Source: Escherichia phage vB_EcoM_KAW3E185
DNA: 64,000 bases
Reading direction: 5' to 3' (one strand)
Sequence record: MK373782.1
Positions 8,382 to 33,563 of this stretch are shown piece after piece (position 1 is the first letter of the stretch; every line of letters starts with the position of its first letter). Both the position numbers and the translations under genes were made by a program. The notes under the pieces were generated by a model. The model was not told the origin of the DNA, did no database searches, and saw only the letters and a program-made list of their open reading frames with translations.

Positions 8382-8383
8382 CA

Positions 8384-8878: not shown

Positions 8879-8909
8879 AATGTTTTTCCTGTTTGGTTAA
8901 GATAGAAAG

Positions 8910-8939: not shown

Positions 8940-8944
8940 AGGTT

Positions 8945-9622
8945 TTATCGCTGTTTTACACTTAACGGGTCAGGATTCTCAGGGACATCTTCAAGGCCAA
9001 GCGCATAACGCTGAGCATATTTTAACATCAAAATATCTTTAGCACAATCATGAATACTATCATGGGCAACGAATCCTTTTAGCGTACCCATCGGTAATGG
9101 ACACATACTTAATCCTCGTGTCAACGAGTAAGCTTCGATTGCCGTACGAATATCGCGTTGAGCCCAGAATTTAACCGGTTCTAATTTATCAGTATCAATA
9201 TCTGGTTCAAGAACACCTTCATCACGATAGAGGTCACGAATCAAATCGACCAAGATCGGGAAGTCAAAGCTCATACCACGGCACCACATCTGTGATTTCC
9301 ATTGGTCAACTTTATTAGCTCGGCAATAGTCTAAAAAGATTTTAATGCCTTCAAGCGTAGTGACATCGTCTTCAGACGGAGCCAGGTTTTTACGCGCTTC
9401 TGCTGACTGTTCTTTCCACCATTTCATAGTGGATTTAGCGAAAACTCGCTTCCCTTTCTGAGAAGCTAAATTAAATTTAATTCGCTTACCTCGTTGAACA
9501 AGTTCTTCAAATGATTCAACAACTTCAGGGTCGGAATTATATGCAATAACCGCAAGGTCAATAACAGCCGCTTTTGATGTATTGCCGAATGTTTCAAAAT
9601 CTATAATAACATCAGTGCTCAT
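8945..9622 (-). CDS. dexA: exonuclease A (DnaQ-like 3'-5' exonuclease), 225 aa
   Basis: N-terminal IIDFETFG DEDD exonuclease motif; position next to dda as in T4. Confidence 0.75.
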   Translation of the reverse strand: MSTDVIIDFETFGNTSKAAVIDLAVIAYNSDPEVVESFEELVQRGKRIKFNLASQKGKRVFAKSTMKWWKEQSAEARKNLAPSEDDVTTLEGIKIFLDYCRANKVDQWKSQMWCRGMSFDFPILVDLIRDLYRDEGVLEPDIDTDKLEPVKFWAQRDIRTAIEAYSLTRGLSMCPLPMGTLKGFVAHDSIHDCAKDILMLKYAQRYALGLEDVPENPDPLSVKQR

Positions 9623-9631
9623 AATTTTCTC

Positions 9632-10945
9632 TCAAATAAAATGGACGTCAAAACGACCACGAGTTGTGCCGACATACAATAACTGTTTAGCTAATTCTGA
9701 ATCGGCATAATGGATACACGGTGTATAAACAAAGGCTGTGTCAACAGACATACCCTGGGCCTTATGGAAGGTTGATACAGGTAGTGCCTTCACCTTAGTG
9801 AACATACGTTTAGCATCCCAGAATTCGCTCCATGGAGCTTTACCGCCTTTATTCCAGAATTTGTATGTTTCTGCGGTCTTAGCCAAAAACAAATTGAATT
9901 TATAAAGCTCTTCTTCAGAAGAAATAACCTTTATATCTTCGCGGATGTATTCTTCATCATCCCCATATGTTTCTACTGTAAGATTCCAGTATCGTATCAT
10001 ATATTCGCCTGAAACACCACGTGCTTTAACGAATGTAGACGTTTCTACAGCATCTCGAATACGAACGAATTGCCCGTTATTGAAAAGCATTTCGGTCATA
10101 TTTTTGCCATCTAGTTTATATGTCTTAGTAAATGGCTCTTGTAGAACAATGACTTCGTCTTTAATAAATGGTTTTTCTGTTTCAAGAAGTTTTCGGCGAA
10201 TAATTGAATTCAACTTGTCCACCGACTTATTTGTGAATGCCATCATTCGATTTTCGAAAAGGTCTTCAGGAGTTTTAACGACATTAAAATAGTTCGTCAT
10301 ATACGATTTAAGGTCTGTATATCCGTGAACACCGTGTCCATCAACTACTTTATCGTAAATCCATTTGCCATTACGAATATCAGTCGCAACATCAATAATT
10401 GGTGCATTGCTACGTTTAACTTCTGTAAGGTTGCATTGCACGAAGTCTTTGTGAGTGAAGAAAGGACTTAGATACGCAGTTGATTCGCCTGGGTCTACCG
10501 GACGAATCTGGCATCGGTCGCCGATGCCAATTACTGTACACCATTTAGGGATACTAGCTAACATTATTTTAAACAGAGAACGGTCGCACATTGACGCTTC
10601 ATCAAATAACAGTACACGACACAAGGCTAAGTCGGGAACCTTTTTCTGTTCAAACAATACGTTTTCTTCGTATGTAGTTGGGTTGATTTTAAGAATGCTA
10701 TGAATAGTCGATGCTTCTTGGCCCGCAAGTTTGCTTAGAACCTTTTTAGCAGCATGTGTAGGGGCTGCTAAAATAATACCTGATTCTCCAGAAGAAATAA
10801 GGGCTTCAACGATGAATCTAGTAAGGGTTGTTTTACCTGTACCAGCGGGCCCGTTAATAGTTACGTGATGTTTCTTTTCTTTAATAGCGTTCATAACAAC
10901 GTTGAAGGCGTTTTTCTGGCCTTCAGTCAAATCATCAAATGTCAT
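9632..10945 (-). CDS. dda: Dda DNA helicase (SF1), 437 aa
   Basis: Walker A GPAGTGKTT; N-terminus MTFDDLTEGQKNAF matches T4 Dda as I recall it. Confidence 0.9.
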   Translation of the reverse strand: MTFDDLTEGQKNAFNVVMNAIKEKKHHVTINGPAGTGKTTLTRFIVEALISSGESGIILAAPTHAAKKVLSKLAGQEASTIHSILKINPTTYEENVLFEQKKVPDLALCRVLLFDEASMCDRSLFKIMLASIPKWCTVIGIGDRCQIRPVDPGESTAYLSPFFTHKDFVQCNLTEVKRSNAPIIDVATDIRNGKWIYDKVVDGHGVHGYTDLKSYMTNYFNVVKTPEDLFENRMMAFTNKSVDKLNSIIRRKLLETEKPFIKDEVIVLQEPFTKTYKLDGKNMTEMLFNNGQFVRIRDAVETSTFVKARGVSGEYMIRYWNLTVETYGDDEEYIREDIKVISSEEELYKFNLFLAKTAETYKFWNKGGKAPWSEFWDAKRMFTKVKALPVSTFHKAQGMSVDTAFVYTPCIHYADSELAKQLLYVGTTRGRFDVHFI

Positions 10946-10969
10946 CGTAAAGTCCCTGCAATTGGAATA

Positions 10970-11308
10970 CTAACAATACGGCCTGTGTCTAGGATTCGTT
11001 GATACAATCTTTGCGTCTCCGCATCTAGCAATACGGCCTGTGTCTAGGATTCGTTGATACAATCTTTGCGTCTCCGCATCTAGTTTAATGTGTTTCATTT
11101 CAAGCTTATTAAACCAGAACTTACGCGGAGTTTCGACCATTCTTAGAACTCCCATTTTTAAATCTGTTTTATACTGTGTTTTCAAAGTATCGAAAACTTT
11201 ATCTGCAATATCCTTTCTAAAAAATACTGCAGGACGATGCTCATCAAGTGGAACCGGGACAGTAAATCCTTCCATATCTCGATAAACTATTGCATATACA
11301 TAAACCAT
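10970..11308 (-). CDS. hypothetical protein (112 aa) with C-terminus altered by a 55-bp tandem duplication
   Basis: ORF upstream of dda; the last 20 codons are read from the second repeat copy in a shifted frame. Confidence 0.45.
   Translation of the reverse strand: MVYVYAIVYRDMEGFTVPVPLDEHRPAVFFRKDIADKVFDTLKTQYKTDLKMGVLRMVETPRKFWFNKLEMKHIKLDAETQRLYQRILDTGRIARCGDAKIVSTNPRHRPYC
10974..11083. repeat. perfect direct tandem repeat, 2 x 55 bp
   Basis: caatacggcctgtgtctaggattcgttgatacaatctttgcgtctccgcatctag occurs twice back to back. Confidence 0.9.
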
Positions 11309-15664: not shown

Positions 15665-16186
15665 TTAATAACCTCGGTCTTGACGAGCAAAGTTTTCAGC
15701 ATTCTTCAGATAATACAGTTTAAAGATTTCTTCAGCAGAAAGACCCAGACCTTGGAACATGTTCAGAACGAAGTGCAGAATATCAATCATTTCGAATTTA
15801 ATTTCGAGCTGGTCTTCAGGAGACAGTTCATCAATACGACGATTACGATATTCAGCATGTTGTGCTTTCCATGGCTTCCACACAGAGCTGGCAGCTTTTT
15901 CACCGTTGGACATACCACCAAGTGAAGTCAGCAGTTCACGGAATTCATCATCAATATAATCTTTCTGATTACGCAGCCAATCAACAACATCGCCAGCAGT
16001 AGCCAATTCATCAGGATGTTTGTTATGTTCAGGCTTGTCATTTGCCAGACGAACCTGTAAAGATTTCTGCATATCAAGCATTACCTGCAGTGGGTCTTTA
16101 TCTTCGTGAATCAGAGCATTAAAATAAGCTTCTTCTGCTTTATCAACACCAGAAATAAGTTGTGAACATTCGTTAAAGTGTGCCAT
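15665..16186 (-). CDS. 56: dCTP pyrophosphatase (MazG-like), gp56
   Basis: MAHFNEC...DPLQVMLDMQ...LYYLKNAENFARQDRGY matches T4 gp56 as I recall it; start chosen at Met6. Confidence 0.85.
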   Translation of the reverse strand: MAHFNECSQLISGVDKAEEAYFNALIHEDKDPLQVMLDMQKSLQVRLANDKPEHNKHPDELATAGDVVDWLRNQKDYIDDEFRELLTSLGGMSNGEKAASSVWKPWKAQHAEYRNRRIDELSPEDQLEIKFEMIDILHFVLNMFQGLGLSAEEIFKLYYLKNAENFARQDRGY

Positions 16187-19225: not shown

Positions 19226-19474
19226 TTATTCTTTTTCGCGAATAATAATTACTTGTTGAGGCTGCTGAGCTGATTTCTTTTCGGCAACGATAGACCAAAT
19301 TAAAGTTCCAATCCAACCAACCATCGTCCAGTTAAAGAGTAAAGATACAAAGAAGATTGCTGTTGTGCTTTTTGTGCCACGAATAAGTGCGATTACCCAA
19401 GGCAACATGTAAATGATGATTGAACCAATACCTGCGATTAAAACTGCTACTGAACTAGCTACGAATAATTCCAT
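19226..19474 (-). CDS. small membrane protein (82 aa, two hydrophobic segments)
   Basis: Hydrophobic composition; ORF on gene strand. Confidence 0.45.
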   Translation of the reverse strand: MELFVASSVAVLIAGIGSIIIYMLPWVIALIRGTKSTTAIFFVSLLFNWTMVGWIGTLIWSIVAEKKSAQQPQQVIIIREKE

Positions 19475-23017: not shown

Positions 23018-24161
23018 GGTCGTTTTCTATATCTGCTGCAGACGGAGCATCAGAAGTTTTAACCGGAACTTTAGTTGTTGCTTTGCAATTAATAAGGTCG
23101 TTAACAGCGTCATCAACTTCTTTAATAGAAGAGATAGCACCTAGTTTATATTTAGTTTCAATTGCATCTCGGAAAGGTTTGTGTTTAAACAACGGACCCC
23201 AGAATTCTACACAATCAGTAGCTTTAGCACGCCACGATTTCTCTTCACGAATCATTTCACCTGTTTCTTCGTCAAGGAATTCACGAGCATACCAACCAGC
23301 TTTAGGCTTAACAACAAATCCAATTTCAGTTGCCATTTCTAACAAGCCACTGAATGGGTCGATACCACCATCAAAATTAACTGTGATTGGGAAAGTAGAT
23401 TTCTCTTTAACTGTACGAGATTTTTCTGCTTTCAGTGTGAAATCGTACCCAGTCAATTCTGTACCTTCTTTAACCTGACGTTTAGAGATAAAAAATACAG
23501 TGTTAGCAGAATAAAGAATACCTGTACCACCACCCATAATCTCTTTAGGATACAATCCGCCAATTTCCATTGCGGTATGGTTGATTGCAACACACGGAAT
23601 ATCTTTAATAGTCAGATACGGTGTCACAATACGGAAAAGAGATTTAAGTGCTTTAGCACGAGACATATCACCTACAACTTTCTCGTTCAACGCATCTTCG
23701 GTTTCTTTCTTAGATGCAGTATTACCGATTGAATCGATAAAGATAATAACTTTATCACCGCGTTCAATAGCGTCAAGCTGATTAGTCATATCAACTTTAA
23801 GTTGTTCGACAGATTGAATCGGAGTATGAACTACACGGTCTAAATCAACACCCATCGAACGGAAGTAAGATTCTGAAGCACCGAATTCTGAGTCATAAAA
23901 CAAACAAATTGCATCTTTATATTTCTTCATATATGCTGCAACCATGGTCAGCCCAAACAATGTTTTAAAGTGTTTAGAAGGAGCAGCAAAAATAGTTAAG
24001 CCTGATTGCAACCCGGCATTCAGTGCACCACCTAGTGCAATATTCAACATCGGAATACGAGTAGGGACTTCATCACGATTATTAAACAGCTTAGACTTAG
24101 TCAAGTCTGCAGTCATTTTAGAAGTAGAAGCTTTAATCAGACGAGATTTTAAATCAGACAT
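22989..24161 (-). CDS. uvsX: UvsX recombinase (RecA-like), 390 aa
   Basis: N-terminus MSDLKSRLIKASTSK and RecA core motifs match T4 UvsX as I recall it. Confidence 0.9.
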   Translation of the reverse strand: MSDLKSRLIKASTSKMTADLTKSKLFNNRDEVPTRIPMLNIALGGALNAGLQSGLTIFAAPSKHFKTLFGLTMVAAYMKKYKDAICLFYDSEFGASESYFRSMGVDLDRVVHTPIQSVEQLKVDMTNQLDAIERGDKVIIFIDSIGNTASKKETEDALNEKVVGDMSRAKALKSLFRIVTPYLTIKDIPCVAINHTAMEIGGLYPKEIMGGGTGILYSANTVFFISKRQVKEGTELTGYDFTLKAEKSRTVKEKSTFPITVNFDGGIDPFSGLLEMATEIGFVVKPKAGWYAREFLDEETGEMIREEKSWRAKATDCVEFWGPLFKHKPFRDAIETKYKLGAISSIKEVDDAVNDLINCKATTKVPVKTSDAPSAADIENDLDEMEDFDE

Positions 24162-24259
24162 TGTATTTTTCCATAGGCATCATTATATTTTACTCATGTT
24201 TAAAAGATAAGATGATTATATACTAAGGGTTATACAGCATTTAAAACTTTAAATGGCTC

Positions 24260-24808
24260 TTAACGAGCCCATTTGATAATTTCTGTAATCAAATAATTAC
24301 GTTCGCTTGCATTAAATCCTATAACTTTGTTAGCACCATCATGATTAAGTAATTGATACGTTTGGATTTTGTTATGAATTGCAAACTCTTCAAAATGTGA
24401 AATGACTGTATTAAAACCGAATGAAGACAAAGTAATAAGGTCGTCTTCAAAACTTTCAGTCATTTCGTTACGTGTTAAAATAATTGTGAACACATCATGG
24501 TTTTGGCAAAGACGAATATAATCCTGTTCATAAACGTCAAGAACCGAGTCCGCATCTTGTCGAATACGTCCATAAACCCAGTTACTAATATATCCACGGT
24601 CTAACAGATAAATCTTAGTAGGGTCTAAATAATTCAACATCGTTTCGAAACAACCAACTTCATTTCGAGACTTAACATCGAAACGTCCATCAACTGTTCG
24701 TTTAGGGAAATCAATCTTTACATATCTTTCACTAATTTCCATTATGTCATTAATGAAAGTTGTTTTACCAGCATTATCCGGGCCATCTACTAAAATAATT
24801 TTAGCCAT
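24260..24808 (-). CDS. P-loop nucleoside/nucleotide kinase-like protein (182 aa)
   Basis: Walker A GPDNAGKTT and LLDRGY motif typical of dNK/TMPK-family kinases; sits in the T4 beta-gt slot. Confidence 0.5.
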   Translation of the reverse strand: MAKIILVDGPDNAGKTTFINDIMEISERYVKIDFPKRTVDGRFDVKSRNEVGCFETMLNYLDPTKIYLLDRGYISNWVYGRIRQDADSVLDVYEQDYIRLCQNHDVFTIILTRNEMTESFEDDLITLSSFGFNTVISHFEEFAIHNKIQTYQLLNHDGANKVIGFNASERNYLITEIIKWAR

Positions 24809-24809
24809 T

Positions 24810-25709
24810 TTATTCCTCGATTACGACATCTTCATATTTAGGTATATTATACGGTGAAGAAATTAAAGCATTAAAATAGATGAACTCACCAAGACCTGGA
24901 TGAAATACTTCTTCAGGATTTTCGAAATATTGAATCTTCGGACGTCCTTTAAGAATTTGATAGTACTCAGTTTTAGTTGGTTTAAAAATTCGAATTAGCG
25001 CTTCTTCAGGATACTTATTTCTGTCAAAGCTATTATTTGGATCGGTTATATAAAGCGGTTGACCTAATTGAATTGCGCATTCAACAACTTGTTCAAAACG
25101 ATAGCATGGGTCACTAATTCGAAATGGATGAAAAATACCATCTAGATGAATAGGAGCCAAATCACCTACAAGACGCTGCATGATGGAAGGACGTATAACT
25201 TTCTGCGTTACGATAATCTTATTACCATCTGCACCAGCGTTAACCAGCACTTCTTTTTGACGTTCATTCAACACAGTAGTTTGAAGTGAACGATTAACCG
25301 ACAACATATCGGTTTTTAAGAATTCGTCAATATAAAAACGTGGTTTATTAGGGTCTGCAGTGATATTGAAATTGAATTCCACATCAAAAGCGCCGTCATA
25401 TCCAGTGATATCTGTGATTAGAAAATCACAATCATAATAAGCAATTAATGAATCAACCACAAATTCATTTTCAGACCAGAAATATTTACGAGTGTTATAC
25501 GCGTTATCTTTATACCATAATGGAACAAACTTAAATTCTGGAAAAAGACGTTCGCATTCTTTAATATCAGATGCATTACGTGGATATGTAATCACATCAC
25601 CCGGATTAGCACGGTGCAAATGAAGTTGGAAGTTGCCATCCTTAAGGATAGCATACTGTCCAGTTTCATAAGACCTCATACTCAAGATAGGTACGCGGAA
25701 AATAGCCAT
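24810..25709 (-). CDS. hypothetical protein (299 aa), candidate DNA-modification enzyme
   Basis: Occupies the beta-gt position between uvsX and 42; stop overlaps the gene 42 start; no recognisable motif. Confidence 0.5.
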   Translation of the reverse strand: MAIFRVPILSMRSYETGQYAILKDGNFQLHLHRANPGDVITYPRNASDIKECERLFPEFKFVPLWYKDNAYNTRKYFWSENEFVVDSLIAYYDCDFLITDITGYDGAFDVEFNFNITADPNKPRFYIDEFLKTDMLSVNRSLQTTVLNERQKEVLVNAGADGNKIIVTQKVIRPSIMQRLVGDLAPIHLDGIFHPFRISDPCYRFEQVVECAIQLGQPLYITDPNNSFDRNKYPEEALIRIFKPTKTEYYQILKGRPKIQYFENPEEVFHPGLGEFIYFNALISSPYNIPKYEDVVIEE

Positions 25710-26425
25710 TAGTCAAGGAATCCTTTAACATAATCAAAATCACGTTCAAACACATGGGCACTTACCATGGTATGAGTATAATCACCAACTTCTACACCGC
25801 ATTCGTTAGCGATATAATGAAGTAATTTTCCTTGGAGATAAAAATCCAACTGCATAACAACAGCGCAGTTCTGAGAACGCATATGACAGTGGGTATAAAG
25901 CTTACCATCACGGATATAATAAGTCACTGAGTCAGTACATGGATATTCAAGCGTTTCGTCTGAATCAAGCAAAGCCTGATCAGAACTTTCTAGAATTTGG
26001 AACACAACTCTTCGAGAGTTAGGCTTCTCTTTAAGTTCTTTTAGAAGAGCTGGTAATTGGGCCGCAATGCGAGGACCATAGAAAGTGTTGAAGTTCGCCG
26101 GCAAAACATCTGATTTTGGTTTAGAAATAAATTTAGCGACACTAGGATATGCCTTAAACGCTTCTTCTGCGTTGGTACCACCAGAAATCATAAACTTCCA
26201 GAAGTCTTCGGCGTATTCATAAGAGATGCGGTTAATACGCGGGTCGGTCATTTTGAATGATGATGGAGTGTCAACAACTACTGTCATAGACCCAATTTCA
26301 TTACAACGTCCAATACGAGAATCAGTTACGAATTCCGGGTTTTCTAAAATTTCACGATTGACTGCTTTAAATGCGGTTTGAAAATCTGCGGCTTTGATAT
26401 ATTTCATTGTGTTATGTTTTCCCAT
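25709..26425 (-). CDS. 42: ThyA-family deoxypyrimidylate hydroxymethylase (gp42-like, divergent), 238 aa
   Basis: ThyA-fold motifs PNSRR..., YPCTDSVTYYIRDGKL...HMRSQNCAVV, HVFERDF; gene 42 position and size. Confidence 0.7.
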   Translation of the reverse strand: MGKHNTMKYIKAADFQTAFKAVNREILENPEFVTDSRIGRCNEIGSMTVVVDTPSSFKMTDPRINRISYEYAEDFWKFMISGGTNAEEAFKAYPSVAKFISKPKSDVLPANFNTFYGPRIAAQLPALLKELKEKPNSRRVVFQILESSDQALLDSDETLEYPCTDSVTYYIRDGKLYTHCHMRSQNCAVVMQLDFYLQGKLLHYIANECGVEVGDYTHTMVSAHVFERDFDYVKGFLD

Positions 26426-26467
26426 GTTTACCTCAATACAATTTATTATATACTCAATTCGTAAAGC

Positions 26468-26707
26468 TTATTTGAATTTCTTGACAATGTTGATATAACG
26501 TAAAGCTTCAGCACCGATACTTCCAAGAACACTATGAAGAAATGCATCAGCGTAGTATTCCAATTGAACAGGTTCTTTAATCACTTTAGCCGCTTTAGTT
26601 TCAAACAGGCCCATCAGGGCCCTTTTAAGAATTTGTTCGTTAGTGTTCAGTTTCATAGTCAAAATCTCTTCATTAAGTTGGTGGTTAAAAGTTTTTCTAG
26701 AAATCAT
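26468..26707 (-). CDS. small hypothetical protein (79 aa)
   Basis: ORF on gene strand, overlaps next gene by 4 nt. Confidence 0.45.
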   Translation of the reverse strand: MISRKTFNHQLNEEILTMKLNTNEQILKRALMGLFETKAAKVIKEPVQLEYYADAFLHSVLGSIGAEALRYINIVKKFK

Positions 26708-27876
26708 TCCGGGTACCTCAAAGCGTCATCAGAGTTAGTTATATCAATAATAGATATAGAGTTTTCTGCTAACCCGTTTTTAGATAATTGACGTTTATAA
26801 TATCTTTCACAATATGTACACGTCGTCCCGCAGATTTCATTAGCACAATCGAAATCTGGATGTCTGAACCACCTTTTTTCTAAAAAGCCATCTAACAAAG
26901 AGGTTTCAATATTTACTGTATGTGAAAACTCAGTTTCGTTTTCAAGAGTGAAAATAGTCTCTAAAGGCTTCCACAGTTCTAACAAATTACCTTCAAACTT
27001 TTCAGAAGCGTATGCTTCAAGAACTTTCAAAATGTAGTCTGTGCTACCTGTACGTCCTGAAACTTTGAATTGAGTGATACCAATATCATTATAAAGTTTC
27101 AAATCTTGAGGACGAACAAAACGAGTTCTCAACCAGTTAAATGGGTCTGTATCACGAGCTTTAATACAGTGCTGCATAGGATATCCGTTTAAGGATTTAG
27201 CATCATCAGCTGTAACATCAGTACTATGGAAAATATAGCAAGAGTCACGATAGCTACAATGTGTTGTATACCCTTTACCAGCATTAGAACAGAACTCATT
27301 TACAAGAACTTCAAATATTATATTGTTCTTATTGCAAAACTCTGCTGCACGCTTCAGGAAAGAAACTGAACGGTTCTTATGAATTCCGCAACAGACCTTT
27401 TTGATGTTATATTGGTCATGCAAGTATTTGATTTGAGTTACAGCATCGACATGTAGAATTGTTGAAACTTCAATCTCAATATCTTTATTGACTTCACGAA
27501 CAATTTCCATAACAACAGGGTTAGCGATAGTAATACGCCATACGCCTATTGACCAAAGATACTGAACATAATCCTGAATAGCTTTCTTCTTCCACTCAAC
27601 TAGTTCTCTTTTTGAACCAGGATTTATCGTGTTGAGTGTATAGTTAAAGCAAATACCTAATTCGTTACAACGTTTAACGTAGTCTTCTAACATTTTTTTG
27701 TCAACGTCAGGAAGCCTAAAATCAGGTCTGGCTGCTACAAAAGCCATTTCTCTTGTAGAGCCGTATACTTCATTTATCAAGCTATTAGGATAAGTTTTAT
27801 TGAGCTCTACGATTTTATCAAGAAGAGCTAAATCAAAATTCGTTCCGATTTTAAAAGTATTCATTTTTTTTTGCAT
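26704..27876 (-). CDS. Cys-rich enzyme-like protein of unknown function (390 aa)
   Basis: Clustered Cys (CSYRDSC, CANEICGTTCTYC); part of the cassette between genes 42 and 43. Confidence 0.5.
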   Translation of the reverse strand: MQKKMNTFKIGTNFDLALLDKIVELNKTYPNSLINEVYGSTREMAFVAARPDFRLPDVDKKMLEDYVKRCNELGICFNYTLNTINPGSKRELVEWKKKAIQDYVQYLWSIGVWRITIANPVVMEIVREVNKDIEIEVSTILHVDAVTQIKYLHDQYNIKKVCCGIHKNRSVSFLKRAAEFCNKNNIIFEVLVNEFCSNAGKGYTTHCSYRDSCYIFHSTDVTADDAKSLNGYPMQHCIKARDTDPFNWLRTRFVRPQDLKLYNDIGITQFKVSGRTGSTDYILKVLEAYASEKFEGNLLELWKPLETIFTLENETEFSHTVNIETSLLDGFLEKRWFRHPDFDCANEICGTTCTYCERYYKRQLSKNGLAENSISIIDITNSDDALRYPE

Positions 27877-27922
27877 CTCACGTTAATTGATGCGATGGTT
27901 TTTGCAGGTCTTACTTAAATTA

Positions 27923-28324
27923 TTATAGATTCGGTTTATATGATTTAAATGTTTCGAATTCGCCTTTATTCATAAGAGCTTTGAATTCGTCAGGACGCAT
28001 AGCTTTGTCGTCGATAATCCAATCATATACTGGTTTATGTGTTAGCAAATTATGGTACTTCAAGCCAATGTTTGCCAAGTTCTGAATCAGACTTGGGAGA
28101 ATGTCAATTGCTATACGACCAGGACCTACTGACTTCATACCACGAGCAGTGTAAAGCGTTATGGTATGCCCTGCATCATACAGGGCATTAATGGCAGACA
28201 CCATTTCGACGTCTGGTTTGAAGTTCACGTAATCACGATTGTTATTCCATTCCGTGATGCAATCATCGACATCAAAACAAAGATTAAGCATGTTTTCTAC
28301 ACGGTGCATTAGATTCGTTCCCAT
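27923..28324 (-). CDS. small DxD-motif protein, possibly HAD-like phosphatase (133 aa)
   Basis: N-terminal LCFDVDDCIT resembles HAD motif I; assignment tentative because the protein is short for a HAD core. Confidence 0.35.
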   Translation of the reverse strand: MGTNLMHRVENMLNLCFDVDDCITEWNNNRDYVNFKPDVEMVSAINALYDAGHTITLYTARGMKSVGPGRIAIDILPSLIQNLANIGLKYHNLLTHKPVYDWIIDDKAMRPDEFKALMNKGEFETFKSYKPNL

Positions 28325-29994
28325 TGATGAGTGATATCGCCACCGATTGGACGATAAGAAACACCAGTTTCTTTATCAGTTAGTACCCATTTACCAGGAT
28401 TTTTTGTAATCAGAGTAGCCGTTACAGGTTCTGCTACGTCATAACTAATAGAGCCGTCCTGAAGTACACGGCCCATGTTACGTAATTGCTTAGTCAGAAG
28501 TTCCATACCTTTATAATATGCGGCTACCGCTTTAAGTGGATTATTCTTGAAATAACCACCTAATGCAATCCAGATAATTGCCACTGCCAAATGATGATAC
28601 TCGTTAAACGAACTCATCTTTCCATATTTGTAAACTAATGGATTGATGTTAATAGTCACATTACAAGTTGTTTCATCAATAGTAAACTGTCCCCAGGTCG
28701 GATTAGCATTGAATTCATCATAACCTGAAACAGCGTAAAGCACTTTAGCTTCATCATACAATTTTGGCCCGTAAATCTTGGTTTCGCCAAAATATCCACG
28801 AGGGTCGATAAACTTGACTTCGCCGTTATCAGTAATCATAGTATTACTGAAGTTCGGGTCGCCATGAATAACAGAGTACTGTCCCTGAGAACGGTTATGA
28901 TAACGAATAAGGTGTTCTAAAGCTTGTTTCAGCATTGGCTTCAGACGTCCAATCTTAGTGTAGTTCACATGTGTGATTTTACCAAATGAATCAATCAATG
29001 GTTGAATGCTTTCACAACGATCAATAACTTTCGTATAGAATTCTTTAGTGAAATCACGACGAACAGTTTCAGGACTTACAAAATAAGTGTCTGTGCTGAA
29101 TTTCAGTGCATCTAAAATTGCATCAACAATTTGTGGACGAGCAAGACTTGATTTGGATTTAATATATTCAAATGCCGGCTTACCTTTAATGCGTTCCATT
29201 TCAAAGTTATTTTCATTAACAGAAACTAACTGAGGAACTGAATCCGATTTCACTTTAAGATACCATGAAATCTCATCTTTCTGAAGAGCTCGACCCTGTT
29301 CGGTTAATGCGAATTTAGTTACAGTTTCTTCACCAATTTCAACTGCATTAAAACTACGATTAAGTTCACGAACTTCATGAGCCTTTTCAAGTTTAGGCAT
29401 ATCACCTAAATCAATTAGATTCATAAGCTCTGATTTATTGAATGCGCTGCCGTAAAGGAATTCTACGAAATCACGTCCTTTGCAGTATTCATGAATTTCC
29501 TCATCAGTAGAACCCATGTAGAATTCCCAGTCTTTGAACTGGTAAATTCCCACAACATTACCGCCTGTTTCACCTACATTAGTGATATTTTCACCATCGA
29601 AATTATACCGACATTCATCACCCTTAACATAGATTGCGTTAACATTCCAAGACCATGAACCAAAATCGGGAATAATATCACACCAGTTAACAATTACGTT
29701 ATGGCCGTCTAAATCTTTGTGTAATTTAGCAAGAGCATAAGCAGAACCGTATGCTTCATCAACTGTACGAATAGTCACATTGAACCCTTCTTGCTCACAA
29801 TAAGCTCGAACAGTTTCAGCAAATTTTGAATGAACTACTACGATAATTTCATCTGCGCCAAGGTCAGAATAAATTGTATACAAATTGCTCAGAATAGTGT
29901 CTTGTTTATAGTTAACAAGCACCTTAGGAATATGATGCGTTATTGGATATAAACGAGTTGCCAGTCCAGCACCAAGAATAACAGCTTTTTTCAT
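28309..29994 (-). CDS. bifunctional sugar-1-phosphate nucleotidylyltransferase / APH-fold sugar kinase (561 aa)
   Basis: N-terminal KKAVILGAGLATRLYPIT...PKVL nucleotidyltransferase signature; C-terminal HGDPNFSN...FIDPRG kinase motifs. Confidence 0.6.
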   Translation of the reverse strand: MKKAVILGAGLATRLYPITHHIPKVLVNYKQDTILSNLYTIYSDLGADEIIVVVHSKFAETVRAYCEQEGFNVTIRTVDEAYGSAYALAKLHKDLDGHNVIVNWCDIIPDFGSWSWNVNAIYVKGDECRYNFDGENITNVGETGGNVVGIYQFKDWEFYMGSTDEEIHEYCKGRDFVEFLYGSAFNKSELMNLIDLGDMPKLEKAHEVRELNRSFNAVEIGEETVTKFALTEQGRALQKDEISWYLKVKSDSVPQLVSVNENNFEMERIKGKPAFEYIKSKSSLARPQIVDAILDALKFSTDTYFVSPETVRRDFTKEFYTKVIDRCESIQPLIDSFGKITHVNYTKIGRLKPMLKQALEHLIRYHNRSQGQYSVIHGDPNFSNTMITDNGEVKFIDPRGYFGETKIYGPKLYDEAKVLYAVSGYDEFNANPTWGQFTIDETTCNVTININPLVYKYGKMSSFNEYHHLAVAIIWIALGGYFKNNPLKAVAAYYKGMELLTKQLRNMGRVLQDGSISYDVAEPVTATLITKNPGKWVLTDKETGVSYRPIGGDITHQWERI

Positions 29995-30035
29995 GTTGAA
30001 GTCCTCATTGGTAAGTAGGAGTATTGTACACTATT

Positions 30036-30179
30036 CTAGTTAAAGCATTCATACTTTGCTTGTAGTCCAATCATAATCCATCCAATTACAAGTGTTGGAA
30101 TCATTACCGGAGCCGTTAAGCTCCAGTAGATAGTCATGACAAGCATCAATAGTAAAAGTCCTATTGTTATTGCTTTCAT
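30036..30179 (-). CDS. small hydrophobic protein (47 aa)
   Basis: Not in ORF track; hand translation MKAITIGLLLLMLVMTIYWSLTAPVMIPTLVIGWIMIGLQAKYECFN; ATG overlaps the SIS gene stop as ATGA. Confidence 0.35.
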   Translation of the reverse strand: MKAITIGLLLLMLVMTIYWSLTAPVMIPTLVIGWIMIGLQAKYECFN

Positions 30180-30811
30180 TGTTCGCCTCGTAACATGGCA
30201 CCTAGTGCACCGCCTGGATGGAACTTAAGGAAGTCATTAGAGGTAAATCCACGTTCAGACGAAAGGTTGATAGCAAACGTATCGATAAGCGCTAACAACA
30301 ATGTAGTGGACATAGTCGGAGCCAGAGAATTCTCATCAACCTCTACCGCGATGCCGGTGCAGAACGTATAATCAAAAAGAGCTTCGTATTCTTGTGGAAT
30401 GTCAGGGTTACAATGTAACAGAATCTGTTTAACCTGAGGACGAATCATACGAAGATGTTTAGCAACACCTATCATTTCTTCAGTCTTACCAGAACGACTG
30501 ATGTGGACTAATACATCATTAGGTGCAATAAATCCTGCGTCACCATGAGAATAATGCCCGGTATTCAAATACATGCTAGGAATACCTAGTGAAGCAAAAG
30601 TCTCGGAAGCTTTAGTTGCGATATTAGCATTCTTACCAACACCTGTAATAATTACCCGGCTTTCATAATTACTAAGTCCAGGGCGTCGAAGAGTTTCTAG
30701 AATAGCATTATAACGAGCAGGGTTTTGACTAATTACTTTAGCCATAGTGGCAAGAGATGAAGCTTGTTTTACGATTGCGTCAATAGCGATAGTGATTGGT
30801 GTAGTTTTCAT
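30176..30811 (-). CDS. SIS-domain sugar-phosphate isomerase, KdsD-like (arabinose-5-phosphate isomerase-like), 211 aa
   Basis: ITGVGKNANIATK...HGDAGF...HISRSGKTEE...FHPGGALG parallel KdsD/GutQ SIS motifs; no CBS domains. Confidence 0.65.
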   Translation of the reverse strand: MKTTPITIAIDAIVKQASSLATMAKVISQNPARYNAILETLRRPGLSNYESRVIITGVGKNANIATKASETFASLGIPSMYLNTGHYSHGDAGFIAPNDVLVHISRSGKTEEMIGVAKHLRMIRPQVKQILLHCNPDIPQEYEALFDYTFCTGIAVEVDENSLAPTMSTTLLLALIDTFAINLSSERGFTSNDFLKFHPGGALGAMLRGEQ

Positions 30812-30851
30812 ATTTCTCTCATTTAATTAGTTGGCCGTCCTTGGCATTATA

Positions 30852-33563
30852 TCAAAAATCAAACATATCGAACAGAGATGCTTTCTTCTCGTAATCGAGT
30901 TTAGCTGCTGATGTGAATCCTTCAAGTGGTTTAATAAATGTCTTCTCAAGGAGAACAGTGTAGTCCATCCAATGAAGTACATCGTCTTTAATTAAATCTG
31001 TGATTTCAGTACCAGAAGGCCATGCGATACATTTATCACCGAATGGGTTTCCTTCACGTAAAGGCAGAACATATACTTTTTCACCTTCTACAACTTGTGG
31101 TGCATCAATATTACCTTTGATAGCTCGGTTATATGTCAGAATTCCACGAATATGGAACGGACATTTAGGACCAGGGAATCCACCTACGTCATATTTAGCA
31201 ATGTTATTCGCAGAAGATACCGACGCGATGCTAATATAATTCAATTGACGGAATTCTTTTTCAAACTCTTTAAAATATTCTTGTAATGATTCTTCACCTT
31301 CTTGAAGCATACGACGAATACATTCTTTAAGAGCTTTCTGTACTGCTTTAGGAGTCGAAGATTTCTGAGTCTCTAGACCCATGATTTTGAGTTTAGGCTC
31401 AGCGTAACGAGTACCTTCCATATCCCACACGTTTAATGCATAACGTTTCTTACCAGTCCAAAATCCGCCAATACCTTTAGAACCAAGCGGAGGCCCAGCG
31501 ATAGCTTCTCGGTCCATGAACATTAAGTGTTGTTTATTGTTCATGTATTCACACATTTCACGGAAACCTCTATCAATAGCAGGTTCCATACGTTCACGAG
31601 CGAACTTATCTAAGAAGTCTACCCAATGGTTGGTATCACGGAATTTAGATTCACCAACCTTATCGATAATTTTATCAGCAGATACGTAAATAGAGTCTGT
31701 ATCACCATAAAGAACGAAAGCTTCACCTTCTGTACCACAAACTTCATTCAGGTATTCATTAACTTTACGTTCAATCCACTGTAAAGCCATTTGCCCGAAT
31801 GTTGTGATTGCAGTAGCATTACGCAAATCATAATAACGGAACCAAACGTTTCCAAGTGCACCATAAAGTGAGTTGATAAGCAATTTACGGTTAATTTGGG
31901 CAGTCATACCTGCAACTTCAGTACGTTGAGCTCTAAACAACATTTCATTAAGAGATTTAGCAGACAACTTTTTAATCTTTTCTTTAATCTCGTCAGTGAA
32001 GTCAAAACGATAATCAACATCTAATGGTTCGTCAACAGAAAGATTAGGATTATGCAATGCCTCTTTAATTATTTCACCATTACGTTGAGCTGCAAGCATA
32101 TAACCTTTATGTTCTTTACGTTGATTAAAGACCTTAGTGATTTCAGTTGGAACTACACCATCACGGTCTTTATAATACATCATGCCGTTAGGAGAACAAC
32201 TGTACACATCTGAAGGACGTTCAGCGATTGCGTTAATATAATCATGCAATGGAGCTACTTTAAACGTTCCTGCTATTGTTTCCGGGCTAATATTCACTTG
32301 GCGAATAATACTTGGATACAGAGATGTAAGGTCGAAACTCATTACATATTTGTATCGATTTGGAATAGGTTCCTTAACAAAAGCGCCAGGATAAGGTTGA
32401 ACCGGGTGAGAACGACCTTGTGGAATCACCTTGTTTTGTTCTTTAAGGCTATTAAAAATAATAGCATCCCAAGTTTTAATTGGACTGAACACAGATTGAA
32501 TCTGAATTTTAGCATAATAACCCATGTCCAAACTCAAGTTGATGAACTGACGCTTAGCATCAATTTGCAATACACGATACACGTCGATAATGTTATAAGA
32601 AATATATCGTTGGTGATTGCTTTCACGAAGCTTAGAAATAGGGCCGTCATATTTCAGTTTACCAACGTTCAATTCAAATTCTGAAATGTAATCCAGAGAA
32701 TACGACGGTTGGTTCGTGAAAGAGAACTTTTTGTAAAGGTCAATGTAATCAAGAACAGAGATACCGAACAATGTAATGATTTCACGAGAACCATACATGT
32801 TTTCGATAACTTTAACACGAGTTTTACGATGTGGTGATAAACGTTTCGCAGTAGATTCGCCAAAAATATTCTTGATTCGGTTATACACATATGGAATATC
32901 AAATGACTCAACGTTCCATCCAGTCAAAATGACAGGAGTTTTCTGTTGCCAGAAGTTGAGATATTCCATCAACAATTCTTTTTCGTTATCGAACGGCATA
33001 TAAATGATTTTATCGATAATTTCGGATGGAACTTCATCACCACCTTGTTCTTGAAGCTTAGCCGCAATTTCGATAGACCATTCTTCTACATTACCATATG
33101 GAGAATTCAATAGATCAAATACGTAGAACCTGTCGTCAATTGAGTCATAATGGGTGATAGCATCAATCGGATGTTTTGCTTGTGACGGCTCAGGGAACCC
33201 ATCCGGAGATGTTACTTCGATGTCGAAGTTAGCCACACGAATTTTTGTATGGTCGTATTTGATTTCATAGTTATAAGTGTCAGACAAATACGCCAATTTG
33301 AAATCGTCCATGCCAAGTGCTTCAAGTCCGATATCTTCCATGCGTTTAATCCATTGGGAGGCATCACGCATATTAGCGAACAACTTACGAGTACACGGCT
33401 TACCGTAGATATCGAAATATTTCGTAGCCTGACTTTCTGGACAATGAGCAAACAGTGATGGTTTATATTCTACTTCACGAGTACGTTCACGGCCATTAGA
33501 ATCGATGTAACGTTCAAAAATTGAATCACCAATCTGTTCAACCGTTAAGTAAAATTCTTTCAT
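30852..33563 (-). CDS. 43: DNA polymerase gp43 (family B), 903 aa
   Basis: N-terminus MKEFYLTVEQIGDSIFERYIDSNGRERTREVEYKPSLFAHCPESQ matches RB69 gp43 as I recall it; exo and pol motifs present. Confidence 0.95.
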   Translation of the reverse strand: MKEFYLTVEQIGDSIFERYIDSNGRERTREVEYKPSLFAHCPESQATKYFDIYGKPCTRKLFANMRDASQWIKRMEDIGLEALGMDDFKLAYLSDTYNYEIKYDHTKIRVANFDIEVTSPDGFPEPSQAKHPIDAITHYDSIDDRFYVFDLLNSPYGNVEEWSIEIAAKLQEQGGDEVPSEIIDKIIYMPFDNEKELLMEYLNFWQQKTPVILTGWNVESFDIPYVYNRIKNIFGESTAKRLSPHRKTRVKVIENMYGSREIITLFGISVLDYIDLYKKFSFTNQPSYSLDYISEFELNVGKLKYDGPISKLRESNHQRYISYNIIDVYRVLQIDAKRQFINLSLDMGYYAKIQIQSVFSPIKTWDAIIFNSLKEQNKVIPQGRSHPVQPYPGAFVKEPIPNRYKYVMSFDLTSLYPSIIRQVNISPETIAGTFKVAPLHDYINAIAERPSDVYSCSPNGMMYYKDRDGVVPTEITKVFNQRKEHKGYMLAAQRNGEIIKEALHNPNLSVDEPLDVDYRFDFTDEIKEKIKKLSAKSLNEMLFRAQRTEVAGMTAQINRKLLINSLYGALGNVWFRYYDLRNATAITTFGQMALQWIERKVNEYLNEVCGTEGEAFVLYGDTDSIYVSADKIIDKVGESKFRDTNHWVDFLDKFARERMEPAIDRGFREMCEYMNNKQHLMFMDREAIAGPPLGSKGIGGFWTGKKRYALNVWDMEGTRYAEPKLKIMGLETQKSSTPKAVQKALKECIRRMLQEGEESLQEYFKEFEKEFRQLNYISIASVSSANNIAKYDVGGFPGPKCPFHIRGILTYNRAIKGNIDAPQVVEGEKVYVLPLREGNPFGDKCIAWPSGTEITDLIKDDVLHWMDYTVLLEKTFIKPLEGFTSAAKLDYEKKASLFDMFDF

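What the first reader, a model, noticed from the sequence alone, without database searches (positions are those of the whole stretch)
26468..30811. Pentose nucleotide-sugar (probably NDP-arabinose) cassette inserted between gene 42 and gene 43
Between the hydroxymethylase gene and DNA polymerase gene 43, where T4 has only imm/imm.1, this genome carries about 4.4 kb of tightly coupled genes. They encode a SIS-domain isomerase with KdsD-type motifs (30176-30811), a 561-aa fusion of a sugar-1-phosphate nucleotidylyltransferase to an APH/choline-kinase-fold kinase (28309-29994), a small DxD-motif protein that may be a HAD-like phosphatase (27923-28324), a 390-aa Cys-rich protein (26704-27876), and 79-aa and 47-aa ORFs. 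My inference is a phage-encoded route from ribulose-5-P to an activated pentose: isomerase to arabinose-5-P, dephosphorylation, anomeric kinase, then nucleotidylyl transfer. That NDP-sugar would feed a DNA glycosyltransferase acting on hydroxymethylcytosine. From memory, arabinosyl-hmC has been reported for RB69-type phages, but I do not know this cassette's enzymology to be established.
Basis: partly seen in the sequence, partly recalled or inferred. Interest (0 to 1): 0.9.

Follow-up and report, generated by a model that had tools for sequence, protein, structure and literature searches.

The report
Phage UDP-arabinose DNA-modification gene cassette
This RB69-type phage gene block makes activated arabinose to decorate the phage's cytosines, a pathway published in 2018-2026, but its iron-sulfur U32 gene is unexplained in the papers I could read and may let the phage hydroxylate cytosine without oxygen.

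Summary
All six ORFs sit at the stated coordinates on the minus strand, tightly coupled, between DNA polymerase gp43 and the thymidylate-synthase homologue.

The window is a Mosigvirus, and its cassette proteins are 92-100% identical to those of RB69 and HY126. SIS is the arabinose-5-P isomerase. The 561-aa fusion is AfhE (C1 kinase plus UDP-arabinose pyrophosphorylase). The 133-aa protein is the AfhF phosphatase.

Three corrections:
- The kinase acts before the phosphatase: A5P, then Araf-1,5-P2, then Araf-1-P, then UDP-Araf.
- The acceptor base is 5-hydroxycytosine, not hmC.
- "Gene 42" is an O2- and flavin-dependent 5-hydroxy-dCMP synthase.

The 390-aa Cys-rich protein is a U32-family Fe-S protein, and no paper I could read explains it. 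I found four things about it:
- It is the most conserved cassette protein.
- It is absent from Acinetobacter phages.
- It is flanked by a chorismate mutase in 51 phage genomes, though not in this one.
- It lies next to DAHP synthase or a DAHP synthase-chorismate mutase fusion in unrelated phages.

Characterised U32 proteins are linked to prephenate-dependent, O2-independent hydroxylations, including 5-hydroxycytidine formation. This suggests an anaerobic route to 5-hydroxycytosine. That is inference, not shown.

The parts
30176..30811 (-). SIS-domain D-arabinose-5-phosphate isomerase (RB69 gp55 orthologue). It has only the SIS domain and lacks the CBS pair of KdsD.
   Evidence: Pfam SIS 8.2e-10. 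NCBIfam KpsF/GutQ 8.8e-32 and KdsD 3.8e-30, matching KdsD positions 47-202 of 328. PHROG 5670 'arabinose 5-phosphate isomerase' 2.4e-116. 96.7% identical to RB69 gp55. Role assigned in PMC13326640.
30036..30179 (-). 47-aa single-pass membrane protein of unknown function. It is always found next to the SIS and AfhE genes.
   Evidence: PHROG 3610 6.8e-27. Homologues lie at the same position in 14 or more T4-like loci of several genera, including an unannotated copy in WG01. LC53 annotates it 'transmembrane segment(s)'.
28309..29994 (-). Bifunctional AfhE orthologue. The N-terminal domain is a sugar-1-P nucleotidylyltransferase (UDP-arabinofuranose pyrophosphorylase). The C-terminal APH/choline-kinase-fold domain is an arabinose-5-P C1 kinase.
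   Evidence: NTP_transferase at residues 3-99, 8.5e-10; weak Fructosamin_kin/EcKL/APH hits at residues 308-409. The motifs GAGLATRL...PK and HGDPNFSN...DPRG are visible in the translation. 97.0% identical to the HY126 protein and 99% to RB69 gp52:53. Activities as reported for HY126 AfhE in PMC13326640.
27923..28309 (-). HAD-like Mg2+ phosphatase (AfhF orthologue). It converts Araf-1,5-bisphosphate to Araf-1-P.
   Evidence: TIGR01689 EcbF-BcbF capsule-biosynthesis phosphatase 4.3e-13. PHROG 1238. FDVDD motif visible. 100% identical to the HY126 protein and 99.2% to RB69 gp51. Function from PMC13326640.
26704..27876 (-). U32-family putative Fe-S protein (RB69 gp50 orthologue). Its function is not established. 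Proposed here: a prephenate-dependent, O2-independent pyrimidine C5 hydroxylase.
   Evidence: Pfam Peptidase_U32 7.5e-11, above the gathering score. AF2 pLDDT 89. Best PDB fold match is 5d88, U32 protein Mk0906. C207/C213/C237 align with the Fe-S ligands of UbiU, RlhA and TrhP. Context evidence.
26468..26707 (-). 79-aa helical protein of unknown function. Its start overlaps the U32 stop by 4 nt. It is not a chorismate mutase.
   Evidence: PHROG 8601 9.9e-51. No Pfam or NCBIfam hit. 45% identical to the Yersinia TG1 65-aa ORF that sits between U32 and the chorismate mutase. Frameshifted in the HY126 record.
25709..26425 (-). Thymidylate-synthase homologue that acts as a 5-hydroxy-dCMP synthase (flavin- and O2-dependent).
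   Evidence: Pfam Thymidylat_synt 2.4e-15. 98.7% identical to RB69 gp48, which was shown to give 5hodC in vivo with 18O2 labelling. The motif MRSQNCAVVMQLDFY puts N at ThyA position 169 and D at position 177 in the ungapped register.
24810..25709 (-). DNA arabinosyltransferase 1 (RB69 gp46:47 orthologue). It is intact here but split by a sequencing error in the RB69 record.
   Evidence: 98.9-100% identical to RB69p047 and p046. PHROG 3891. Assigned as arabinosyltransferase 1 in PMC13326640, Table 1.
24260..24808 (-). Thymidylate-kinase-like nucleotide kinase (RB69 gp45 orthologue).
   Evidence: PHROG 761 'thymidylate kinase' 2.9e-45. 98.4% identical to RB69p045. Listed in Table 1 of PMC13326640.
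2520..3620 (-). Second DNA arabinosyltransferase (RB69 ORF003c/gp3 orthologue).
   Evidence: 98.6% identical over 366 aa to RB69p003. Proposed transferase in PMC6024577. Called beta-arabinosyltransferase 2 in PMC13326640.
15665..16186 (-). gp56 dCTPase. It removes dCTP so that the modified cytosine fully replaces C.
   Evidence: 99.4% identical to RB69p028. Listed as part of the pathway in PMC13326640, Table 1.

Best explanation
The interval is the sugar-activation half of the Mosigvirus (RB69-type) cytosine hypermodification locus.

The SIS protein diverts host ribulose-5-P to D-arabinose-5-P. The kinase domain of the 561-aa AfhE orthologue phosphorylates C1 to give arabinofuranose-1,5-bisphosphate. 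The small HAD phosphatase (AfhF orthologue) removes the 5-phosphate. The nucleotidylyltransferase domain of AfhE then makes UDP-arabinofuranose.

The adjacent genes supply the acceptor. The ThyA homologue hydroxylates dCMP at C5 using flavin and O2. Kinases raise 5-hydroxy-dCMP to the triphosphate, gp43 incorporates it, and gp56 removes dCTP. Two arabinosyltransferases (24810-25709 and 2520-3620) then add one or two arabinoses to 5-hydroxycytosine in DNA. The resulting DNA resists many restriction enzymes.

Shown experimentally for near-identical orthologues: the 5-hydroxy-dCMP synthase, the AfhE and AfhF activities, and the DNA chemistry. Inferred by homology: the isomerase step, the first transferase and the thymidylate-kinase-like protein. 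Not explained: the U32 protein, the 79-aa ORF and the 47-aa ORF.
For: ORFs and domains. The window is a Mosigvirus with this block 98.8% identical to Shigella phage JK45. Its proteins are 96.7-100% identical (79-aa ORF 92%) to RB69 and HY126 orthologues. Lee et al. NAR 2026 (PMC13326640) report arabinosyl-5-hydroxycytosine in RB69 DNA, gp48 as a flavin- and O2-dependent 5hodCMP synthase, the gp45-gp55 gene cluster, and the HY126 AfhE/AfhF enzymology (He et al. 2026, their reference 49). The Durham collection paper (PMC13390438) independently finds 5-ara-dC and 5-ara-ara-dC in a Mosigvirus and calls the hmC assignment erroneous. Thomas et al. 2018 (PMC6024577) had already proposed this polymerase-to-uvsX module for UDP-arabinose. 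The same gene set is syntenic in Serratia, Klebsiella, Yersinia, Proteus, Edwardsiella, Shewanella and Acinetobacter phages.
Against: I could not read the two primary enzymology papers (He et al. Nat Chem Biol 2026; Mahler et al. Cell Host Microbe 2025). The isomerase activity of the CBS-less SIS protein has not been assayed. The identity of this particular window's phage DNA modification is inferred from 97-100% orthology, not measured.
Confidence: 0.9

Rival explanations
1. The U32 protein, with a neighbouring chorismate mutase in other genera, is a second, O2-independent way to make the 5-hydroxyl group. In this reading a prephenate-dependent Fe-S hydroxylase acts on cytosine, probably on dCMP. 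It would back up or replace the O2-dependent ThyA-like enzyme when the host grows anaerobically. This does not compete with the main explanation. It competes with 'sugar-pathway enzyme' as the role of 26704-27876.
For: The protein is a U32 family member, and its fold matches 5d88. C207/C213/C237 align with UbiU C169/C176/C193, RlhA C169/C176/C192 and TrhP C170/C177/C193. C344 and C353 align with RlhA C580 and C611. RlhA C169, C176, C580 and C611 are experimentally essential.

The characterised U32 proteins are linked to prephenate-dependent, O2-independent hydroxylations. RlhA is required for 5-hydroxycytidine formation (PMC5727448). TrhP is required for ho5U and runs in parallel with an O2-dependent enzyme (PMC6599085). 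UbiU/V run in parallel with flavin mono-oxygenases and use prephenate as the oxygen donor (PMC10990095).

A Pfam CM_2 chorismate mutase, above the gathering score, lies directly after U32 in six genera and in 51 phage records. The U32-CM pair stays together when relocated in Thanatos-2. In unrelated PolIII-alpha phages U32 lies next to DAHP synthase or a DAHPS-CM fusion (6 loci) or a separate CM (1 locus). There it travels with AfhE-, SIS- and GT-like genes, but no divergent (RB69-type) ThyA homologue lies within 10 kb; one locus (L036) has a canonical-looking thymidylate synthase.

U32 is absent from 57 Acinetobacter (strict aerobe) phage records that carry AfhE. It is the most conserved protein of the cassette: 77-87% identity between genera, against 41-72% for AfhE. 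The ThyA-like enzyme needs O2.
Against: There is no biochemistry. Direct hydroxylase activity has not been reconstituted for any U32 protein. Known substrates are RNA polymers and a quinone, not nucleotides or DNA. Mosigviruses, including this window, have no chorismate mutase. E. coli Dhakaviruses such as WG01 run the pathway without U32. The alignment of the C-terminal cysteines is across long gaps, and profile similarity to the E. coli paralogues is weak. Only +/-10 kb of the metagenomic loci was examined. In those loci the adjacency to AfhE and GT genes fits a sugar role equally well. He 2026 and Mahler 2025 could not be read and may address this protein.
Confidence: 0.45
2. The U32 protein belongs to the sugar branch, for example as a reductase, epimerase or other tailoring enzyme of the arabinose donor. 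This is what the database labels suggest: 'putative enzyme involved in UDP-arabinose biosynthesis' and 'sugar or heterocycle reductase'.
For: The Bas46 record labels it an UDP-arabinose enzyme (H43). Table 1 of Lee et al. labels it 'sugar or heterocycle reductase'. It has a TIM-barrel fold with secondary matches to MTHFR and aldolases. In non-T4 phages it lies directly beside AfhE-like or GT-like genes, and in three loci beside an SDR-epimerase-like protein.
Against: As reported by Lee et al. for He et al. 2026, UDP-arabinose is prepared from A5P by AfhE and AfhF, with no role given to U32. Acinetobacter and Dhakavirus phages have the sugar genes and transferases without U32. This reading gives no reason for a chorismate mutase or DAHP synthase to travel with the gene. 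No U32 protein is known to act on sugars.
Confidence: 0.2
3. The U32 protein is a true peptidase, or a mimic of host RlhA/TrhP that modifies host rRNA or tRNA. In this reading it is unrelated to DNA modification and sits in a plastic region by chance.
For: The family was named for collagenase activity. GenBank records call it 'peptidase' or 'collagenase'. The polymerase-to-uvsX region is known to be plastic in T4-like phages (PMC6024577).
Against: Linkage to the ThyA homologue and to the AfhE/GT cassette is constant across T4-like genera and also holds in unrelated PolIII-alpha phages. The protein lacks the RlhA-specific DUF3656 region (390 aa against 653 aa). The collagenase mechanism of the family has never been established.
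Confidence: 0.07

Closest known systems
RB69 gp45-gp55 / HY126 Afh cluster (arabinofuranosyl-5-hydroxycytosine pathway; Lee et al. NAR 2026, He et al. Nat Chem Biol 2026, Mahler et al. Cell Host Microbe 2025)
   Same: Same genes in the same order, with 96.7-100% protein identity (79-aa ORF 92%). The window is another Mosigvirus isolate.
   Different: The fusion gene and the first transferase gene are intact here, whereas the RB69 record splits both. The 79-aa ORF is intact here but frameshifted in the HY126 record.
T4 glucosyl-hydroxymethylcytosine system (gp42, alpha-gt and beta-gt, host UDP-glucose)
   Same: The logic is the same: a ThyA-family enzyme makes a C5-functionalised dCMP, gp56 removes dCTP, gp43 incorporates the modified base, and transferases glycosylate after replication. 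The genomic position (between genes 43 and uvsX) is also the same.
   Different: The base carries a hydroxyl rather than a hydroxymethyl group. The ThyA-family enzyme uses flavin and O2 rather than folate. The sugar donor is not a host metabolite, so the phage carries its own three-enzyme donor pathway.
E. coli KdsD/GutQ arabinose-5-phosphate isomerases
   Same: The SIS catalytic domain is shared (KdsD positions 47-202 matched at 3.8e-30), and so is the predicted reaction, Ru5P to A5P.
   Different: The tandem CBS domains are missing (211 aa against 328 aa). The product feeds DNA modification rather than Kdo synthesis.
U32 Fe-S hydroxylation proteins RlhA, TrhP and UbiU/UbiV
   Same: Pfam U32 domain, conserved cysteines at the Fe-S ligand positions, and a genomic link to prephenate supply. 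The arrangement, an O2-independent U32 protein beside an O2-dependent flavin or rhodanese enzyme serving the same hydroxylation, mirrors TrhP/TrhO and UbiUV/UbiIHF.
   Different: This is a very divergent subfamily (bit scores of 12 or less against the E. coli paralogues). It is a single 390-aa protein with an insertion in the signature motif and its own C-terminal CX4CX3CX2C cluster. The presumed substrate would be a deoxynucleotide or DNA, which is unprecedented. No activity has been shown.

Membership tests
AfhE-type bifunctional arabinose-5-P 1-kinase / UDP-arabinose pyrophosphorylase | N-terminal sugar-1-P nucleotidylyltransferase domain with a G-x-G-x-R...K loop | tested here: met
   Pfam NTP_transferase at residues 3-99, 8.5e-10, above the gathering score. 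GAGLATRL...PK is visible in the translation.
AfhE-type bifunctional arabinose-5-P 1-kinase / UDP-arabinose pyrophosphorylase | C-terminal APH/choline-kinase-fold kinase domain | tested here: inconclusive
   Only sub-threshold Pfam hits (Fructosamin_kin 0.0034, EcKL 0.007, APH 0.034). The catalytic-loop motif HGDPNFSN and DPRG are present in the sequence. Lee et al. report structural hits to 3ham and 6hwl for the RB69 orthologue.
AfhE-type bifunctional arabinose-5-P 1-kinase / UDP-arabinose pyrophosphorylase | Orthology to the characterised HY126 enzyme, and the two catalytic activities | tested here: met
   Orthology: 97.0% identity over 561 aa at the syntenic position. The activities themselves cannot be tested with these tools and are cited from PMC13326640.
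AfhF HAD-type arabinofuranose-1,5-bisphosphate 5-phosphatase | HAD motif I (DxD) and the small capsule-phosphatase-like fold | tested here: met
   TIGR01689 4.3e-13, below the equivalog cut-off but covering positions 1-111 of 126. FDVDD motif present. 100% identical to the HY126 protein.
KdsD/GutQ arabinose-5-phosphate isomerase | SIS domain of the KpsF/GutQ subfamily | tested here: met
   Pfam SIS above the gathering score. KpsF/GutQ 8.8e-32 and KdsD 3.8e-30.
KdsD/GutQ arabinose-5-phosphate isomerase | C-terminal tandem CBS domains; full-length equivalog score | tested here: not met
   The protein is 211 aa. The match covers only KdsD positions 47-202 of 328, and the scores (105-111 bits) are far below the cut-offs of 204-505. 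It is a SIS-only relative and works like KdsD by inference.
   The motif MRSQN puts Asn at position 169 in the ungapped register (MAFFT shifts this by 2 residues). This is the D169N signature of 5hodCMP synthases. The protein is 98.7% identical to RB69 gp48, shown to make 5hodC with O2 and flavin.
Peptidase U32 / Fe-S hydroxylation family (RlhA, TrhP, UbiU/V) | Pfam PF01136 domain and U32 TIM-barrel fold | tested here: met
   42.2 bits against a gathering score of 22.4. AF2 pLDDT 89, and the top PDB match is 5d88, a U32 protein, at E 8e-8.
Peptidase U32 / Fe-S hydroxylation family (RlhA, TrhP, UbiU/V) | Four cysteines that ligate a [4Fe-4S] cluster | tested here: inconclusive
   Three align (C207, C213, C237). 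The canonical fourth position is Leu, but the subfamily has further invariant cysteines (C162, C181, C196 and the cluster at 344-356). The position of the fourth ligand also varies in UbiU and UbiV.
Peptidase U32 / Fe-S hydroxylation family (RlhA, TrhP, UbiU/V) | Dependence on prephenate and independence from O2 | not testable with these tools
   Only indirect evidence: chorismate mutase or DAHPS-CM genes lie adjacent to U32 in at least three independent gene architectures.

The most novel reading that the evidence does not exclude
The U32 gene inside this cassette (26704-27876), with the chorismate mutase that flanks it in other genera, encodes a prephenate-dependent, O2-independent cytosine C5 hydroxylase. 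It would let enteric phages keep making 5-hydroxycytosine DNA under anoxia, where their flavin- and O2-dependent ThyA-like synthase cannot work. In PolIII-alpha-type phages, most of which show no ThyA homologue near the gene, it may be the only hydroxylase. That would be the first U32 enzyme acting on DNA precursors and a third case of paired aerobic and anaerobic hydroxylation routes.
Probability: 0.4. Interest if true: 0.8.

Novelty: already known. Interest (0 to 1): 0.4.

Why it matters
The cassette itself is settled science. It explains how RB69-type phages make a sugar donor their host lacks and so shield their DNA from restriction and CRISPR. Re-finding it adds little.

What remains open is the one large, very conserved gene that none of the papers I could read accounts for. 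Suppose the U32 protein is an anaerobic cytosine hydroxylase. That would explain how these gut phages replicate without oxygen while depending on an O2-requiring base-modification enzyme. It would extend prephenate-dependent hydroxylation from RNA and quinones to DNA precursors. It would also offer a small, soluble, highly expressed U32 enzyme for the in vitro reconstitution that the U32 field still lacks. Finally, it would flag a large set of uncultured phages as likely carriers of hydroxylated and glycosylated bases.

Tried and rejected
1. The 79-aa ORF as a chorismate mutase. Rejected. It has no Pfam or NCBIfam hit even at E<=10. BLASTP against the LC53 chorismate mutase gives E=0.18. My CM HMM finds nothing in the window. 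It is instead homologous to a Yersinia TG1 ORF that co-exists with a chorismate mutase.

2. The viral DAHP_synth_1 genes as Kdo-8-P synthases that consume the cassette's arabinose-5-P. Rejected. All six carry KPRT rather than KANR (which motif marks which enzyme is from my own knowledge). Four are fused to CM_2. Their nearest named cellular homologues are Bacteroidota bifunctional DAHPS/chorismate mutases.

3. Inferring an anaerobic habitat for the non-T4 phages from that host signal. Inconclusive, because the Bacteroidota hits include aerobes such as Flavobacterium and Marivirga.

4. Sequence search of the PDB with the U32 protein. No hit at E<=1.

5. Profile search of the U32 subfamily against E. 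coli UbiU, UbiV, RlhA and TrhP. Only weak local matches, so no sub-family assignment is possible.

6. Promoter and terminator scan of 24000-31000. Fewer promoter-like sites than in shuffled sequence and a chance-level number of terminators. It gives no information on operon structure.

7. Reading He et al. 2026 and Mahler et al. 2025. Neither is held in the library.

8. Literature searches linking U32, prephenate or chorismate with arabinosylated phages. Nothing relevant was found. The terms are also absent from the five phage papers I read.

Full report
OBSERVATION

They lie between DNA polymerase gp43 (30852-33563) and a thymidylate-synthase homologue (25709-26425). Junctions are 1-4 nt overlaps or gaps of about 40-46 nt. 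GC content does not differ from the flanks.

- The 211-aa protein has a SIS domain of the KpsF/GutQ/KdsD type, but only that domain; it lacks the CBS pair.
- The 561-aa protein has an N-terminal NTP_transferase domain and a C-terminal region with weak APH/fructosamine-kinase-type matches. An HGDxxxxN catalytic loop is visible.
- The 133-aa protein matches the small HAD 'capsule biosynthesis phosphatase' family.
- The Cys-rich 390-aa protein is a Peptidase_U32 family member.
- The 47-aa and 79-aa ORFs match full-length PHROG families of unknown function.

IDENTITY OF THE WINDOW

The block is 98.8% identical to Shigella phage JK45 and 95-99% identical to 154 phage records. The window begins at the same base as the RB69 genome, at rIIA. 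Its cassette proteins are 96.7-100% identical to those of RB69 and of phage HY126, apart from the 79-aa ORF at 92%. The window is therefore a Mosigvirus.

WHAT IT IS

The cassette is published.
- Thomas et al. 2018 (PMC6024577) found arabinose on RB69 DNA. [quoted passage not shown]
- Lee et al. 2026 (PMC13326640) showed that the sugar is attached directly to 5-hydroxycytosine through an ether bond. They showed that the ThyA homologue gp48 makes 5-hydroxy-dCMP using a flavin and O2.
- Lee et al. assign gp55 as the isomerase, gp52:53 as the kinase plus pyrophosphorylase, and gp51 as the HAD phosphatase, together making UDP-arabinofuranose.
- For the enzymology they cite He et al. 2026 on HY126. 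AfhE phosphorylates arabinose-5-P to the 1,5-bisphosphate, AfhF removes the 5-phosphate, and AfhE then forms UDP-arabinose.
- A second group independently found 5-ara-dC and 5-ara-ara-dC in a Mosigvirus and calls the earlier hmC assignment erroneous (PMC13390438).

It is wrong on the order of the kinase and phosphatase steps, on the acceptor base, and on the identity of 'gene 42'. It is also out of date in saying the enzymology is not established.

It includes the hydroxylase (25709-26425), transferase 1 (24810-25709), a thymidylate-kinase-like protein (24260-24808), transferase 2 (2520-3620) and the dCTPase gp56 (about 15665-16186).

THE PART THAT IS NOT EXPLAINED

None of the papers I could read discusses the U32 protein. 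Lee et al. list it once in a table as 'sugar or heterocycle reductase'. The words U32, peptidase and chorismate are absent from the texts searched. Two literature searches linking U32 to these phages found nothing relevant. I therefore examined it further.

1. Family. The Pfam score is above the gathering threshold. An AlphaFold model built on 23 homologues has pLDDT 89, and its best PDB match is the U32 protein Mk0906.

I aligned it with E. coli UbiU, UbiV, RlhA and TrhP, taken from the MG1655 genome. C207, C213 and C237 fall on the Fe-S ligand positions UbiU C169/C176/C193 and RlhA C169/C176/C192. C344 and C353 fall on RlhA C580 and C611. Mutation of RlhA C169, C176, C580 or C611 abolishes activity (PMC5727448).

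Two caveats apply. The C-terminal match spans long gaps, and profile similarity to the E. coli paralogues is weak. The subfamily has 72 invariant residues over 23 sequences, including ten cysteines.

2. Distribution. tblastn finds the U32 gene in 221 phage records. The hosts named in the listing are all Enterobacterales or Shewanella, and all hits are at 80% identity or higher. The AfhE fusion is found in 373 records, including 57 Acinetobacter phages. The Acinetobacter DLP1 locus has the isomerase, AfhE, HAD, ThyA homologue and transferases but no U32.

U32 is thus dispensable for the chemistry in a strict aerobe. However, E. coli Dhakavirus WG01 also lacks it.

3. Conservation. Between genera U32 is 77-87% identical. 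The corresponding figures are 41-72% for AfhE, 34-90% for the HAD phosphatase and 66-82% for the ThyA homologue.

4. Neighbours in T4-like phages. In Serratia LC53, Klebsiella kv_tblp2, Shewanella Thanatos-2, Yersinia TG1, Proteus Pm5461 and Edwardsiella PEi26, the gene after U32 is a Pfam CM_2 chorismate mutase. In TG1 and Pm5461 one small ORF intervenes. All six score above the gathering threshold, at 33-47 bits.

tblastn with one of these chorismate mutases finds 51 phage records. Where annotated, the feature lists place the match beside the ThyA-homologue gene, and in several records beside the U32 gene as well. In Thanatos-2 the U32-CM pair has moved together to a different place in the locus.

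Mosigviruses have no chorismate mutase. Their 79-aa ORF is a different protein. It is homologous to a TG1 ORF that sits between U32 and the chorismate mutase.

5. Distant relatives. The large database holds 340 homologues, the T4-like orthologues at 76-87% identity and most of the listed metagenomic ones at 48-58%. A scan of IMG/VR returned 44 loci.

Of these loci, plus five metagenome contigs recovered by exact-protein look-up, 29 are not T4-like; 11 of them carry a DNA polymerase III alpha gene. Counts of neighbouring genes in those 29 loci:
- GT299-like transferases: 17 loci
- AfhE-like fusions: 11 loci
- SIS isomerases: 9 loci
- dCMP deaminase: 7 loci
- thymidylate-kinase-like proteins: 7 loci
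- DAHP synthase or a DAHPS-chorismate-mutase fusion close to U32 (directly adjacent in L012 and L034): 6 loci
- a separate chorismate mutase directly after U32: 1 locus

The DAHPS genes carry the KPRT motif. Their nearest named cellular relatives are Bacteroidota bifunctional DAHPS/chorismate mutases. Only one of the 29 loci has a ThyA gene within 10 kb, and it looks canonical.

INTERPRETATION OF THE U32 GENE

Chorismate mutase makes prephenate, and DAHP synthase opens the pathway that leads to it. All three characterised U32 systems are prephenate-dependent and O2-independent.
- RlhA is required for 5-hydroxycytidine formation in 23S rRNA.
- TrhP is required for 5-hydroxyuridine in tRNA and works in parallel with the O2-dependent TrhO.
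- UbiU/V hydroxylate ubiquinone precursors in parallel with flavin mono-oxygenases, using prephenate as the oxygen donor.

The phage's known cytosine hydroxylase is a flavin enzyme that takes its oxygen from O2. Its hosts are facultative anaerobes. The most economical reading is that U32, with the chorismate mutase where present, is an anaerobic route to the same 5-hydroxyl group.

This is inference from homology and gene context. I rate it about 0.4-0.45.

The main rival is a role in tailoring the sugar donor. Database labels and the adjacency to AfhE and GT genes in non-T4 phages favour it. It does not explain the prephenate-supply genes or the fact that U32 is dispensable for the sugar pathway.

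VERDICT

The residual interest lies in the U32 gene and its link to prephenate supply. That link gives a specific hypothesis that can be tested cheaply.

Noticed in passing
L045:8411-9433, L047:3-971, L048:7302-8357, L050:8332-9387; also L012:8145-8891 and L034:9384-10130: Uncultured PolIII-alpha-type phages encode DAHP synthase, fused to a C-terminal chorismate mutase in four cases, close to a U32 gene. An AfhE-like gene lies nearby in four of the six loci and a SIS-like gene in four. A phage carrying both the first and the last enzyme on the way to prephenate is unusual.
   Followed up: partly
L009, L013, L014 (U32 at 8001-9086, 7001-8083 and 7001-8083): In these large phage contigs (one is 466 kb) U32 follows a DNA polymerase III alpha gene, with a dCMP deaminase in between in L009 and L013. 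It is followed by a conserved protein of about 250 aa. That protein has no Pfam match but looks like the C-terminal half of an SDR epimerase.
   Followed up: partly
L010:8001-14360 (86-kb ENA contig): Two U32 paralogues lie in one neighbourhood with an NT5C deoxynucleotidase, an NMN transporter, a deoxynucleoside kinase, a radical-SAM/SPASM protein and a nucleoside deoxyribosyltransferase. This may be a different nucleoside-modification system.
   Followed up: no
L043:6692-7318 and homologues in 9 non-T4 loci: A protein family of about 208 aa with no Pfam hit occupies the slot between AfhE and U32, where T4-like phages have the HAD phosphatase. It may be a non-homologous replacement phosphatase.
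   Followed up: no
window 30036-30179: The 47-aa membrane protein between the SIS and AfhE genes is conserved in 14 or more T4-like loci across genera. This includes Dhakavirus WG01, where it is unannotated and there is no SIS gene. RB69 annotates only 36 aa of it.
   Followed up: partly
window 26468-26707; L016:6161-6444: The 79-aa ORF is intact here and in RB69 but frameshifted in the HY126 record, where 40 aa are annotated and the rest reads in another frame. Either this is a sequencing error or the gene is dispensable.
   Followed up: partly
window 19229-19474: imm, with imm.1 beside it, is not missing from RB69-type genomes. It has been relocated next to sp and gene 61, away from the gene 42-43 interval it occupies in T4.
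   Followed up: yes
L042:15187-16284 and two other non-T4 loci: A UDP-galactopyranose mutase (GLF, 6.7e-78) lies within about 5 kb of U32 and a GT299-like gene. This suggests furanose sugars other than arabinose on the DNA of some of these phages, as in Rhizobium phage RL38J1.
   Followed up: no
L021 (Klebsiella phage Marfa, U32 at 10004-11164): Marfa has U32 directly followed by the ThyA homologue with no chorismate mutase, unlike other Klebsiella phages. This would be a second independent loss of the chorismate mutase, besides the one in Mosigvirus.
   Followed up: no
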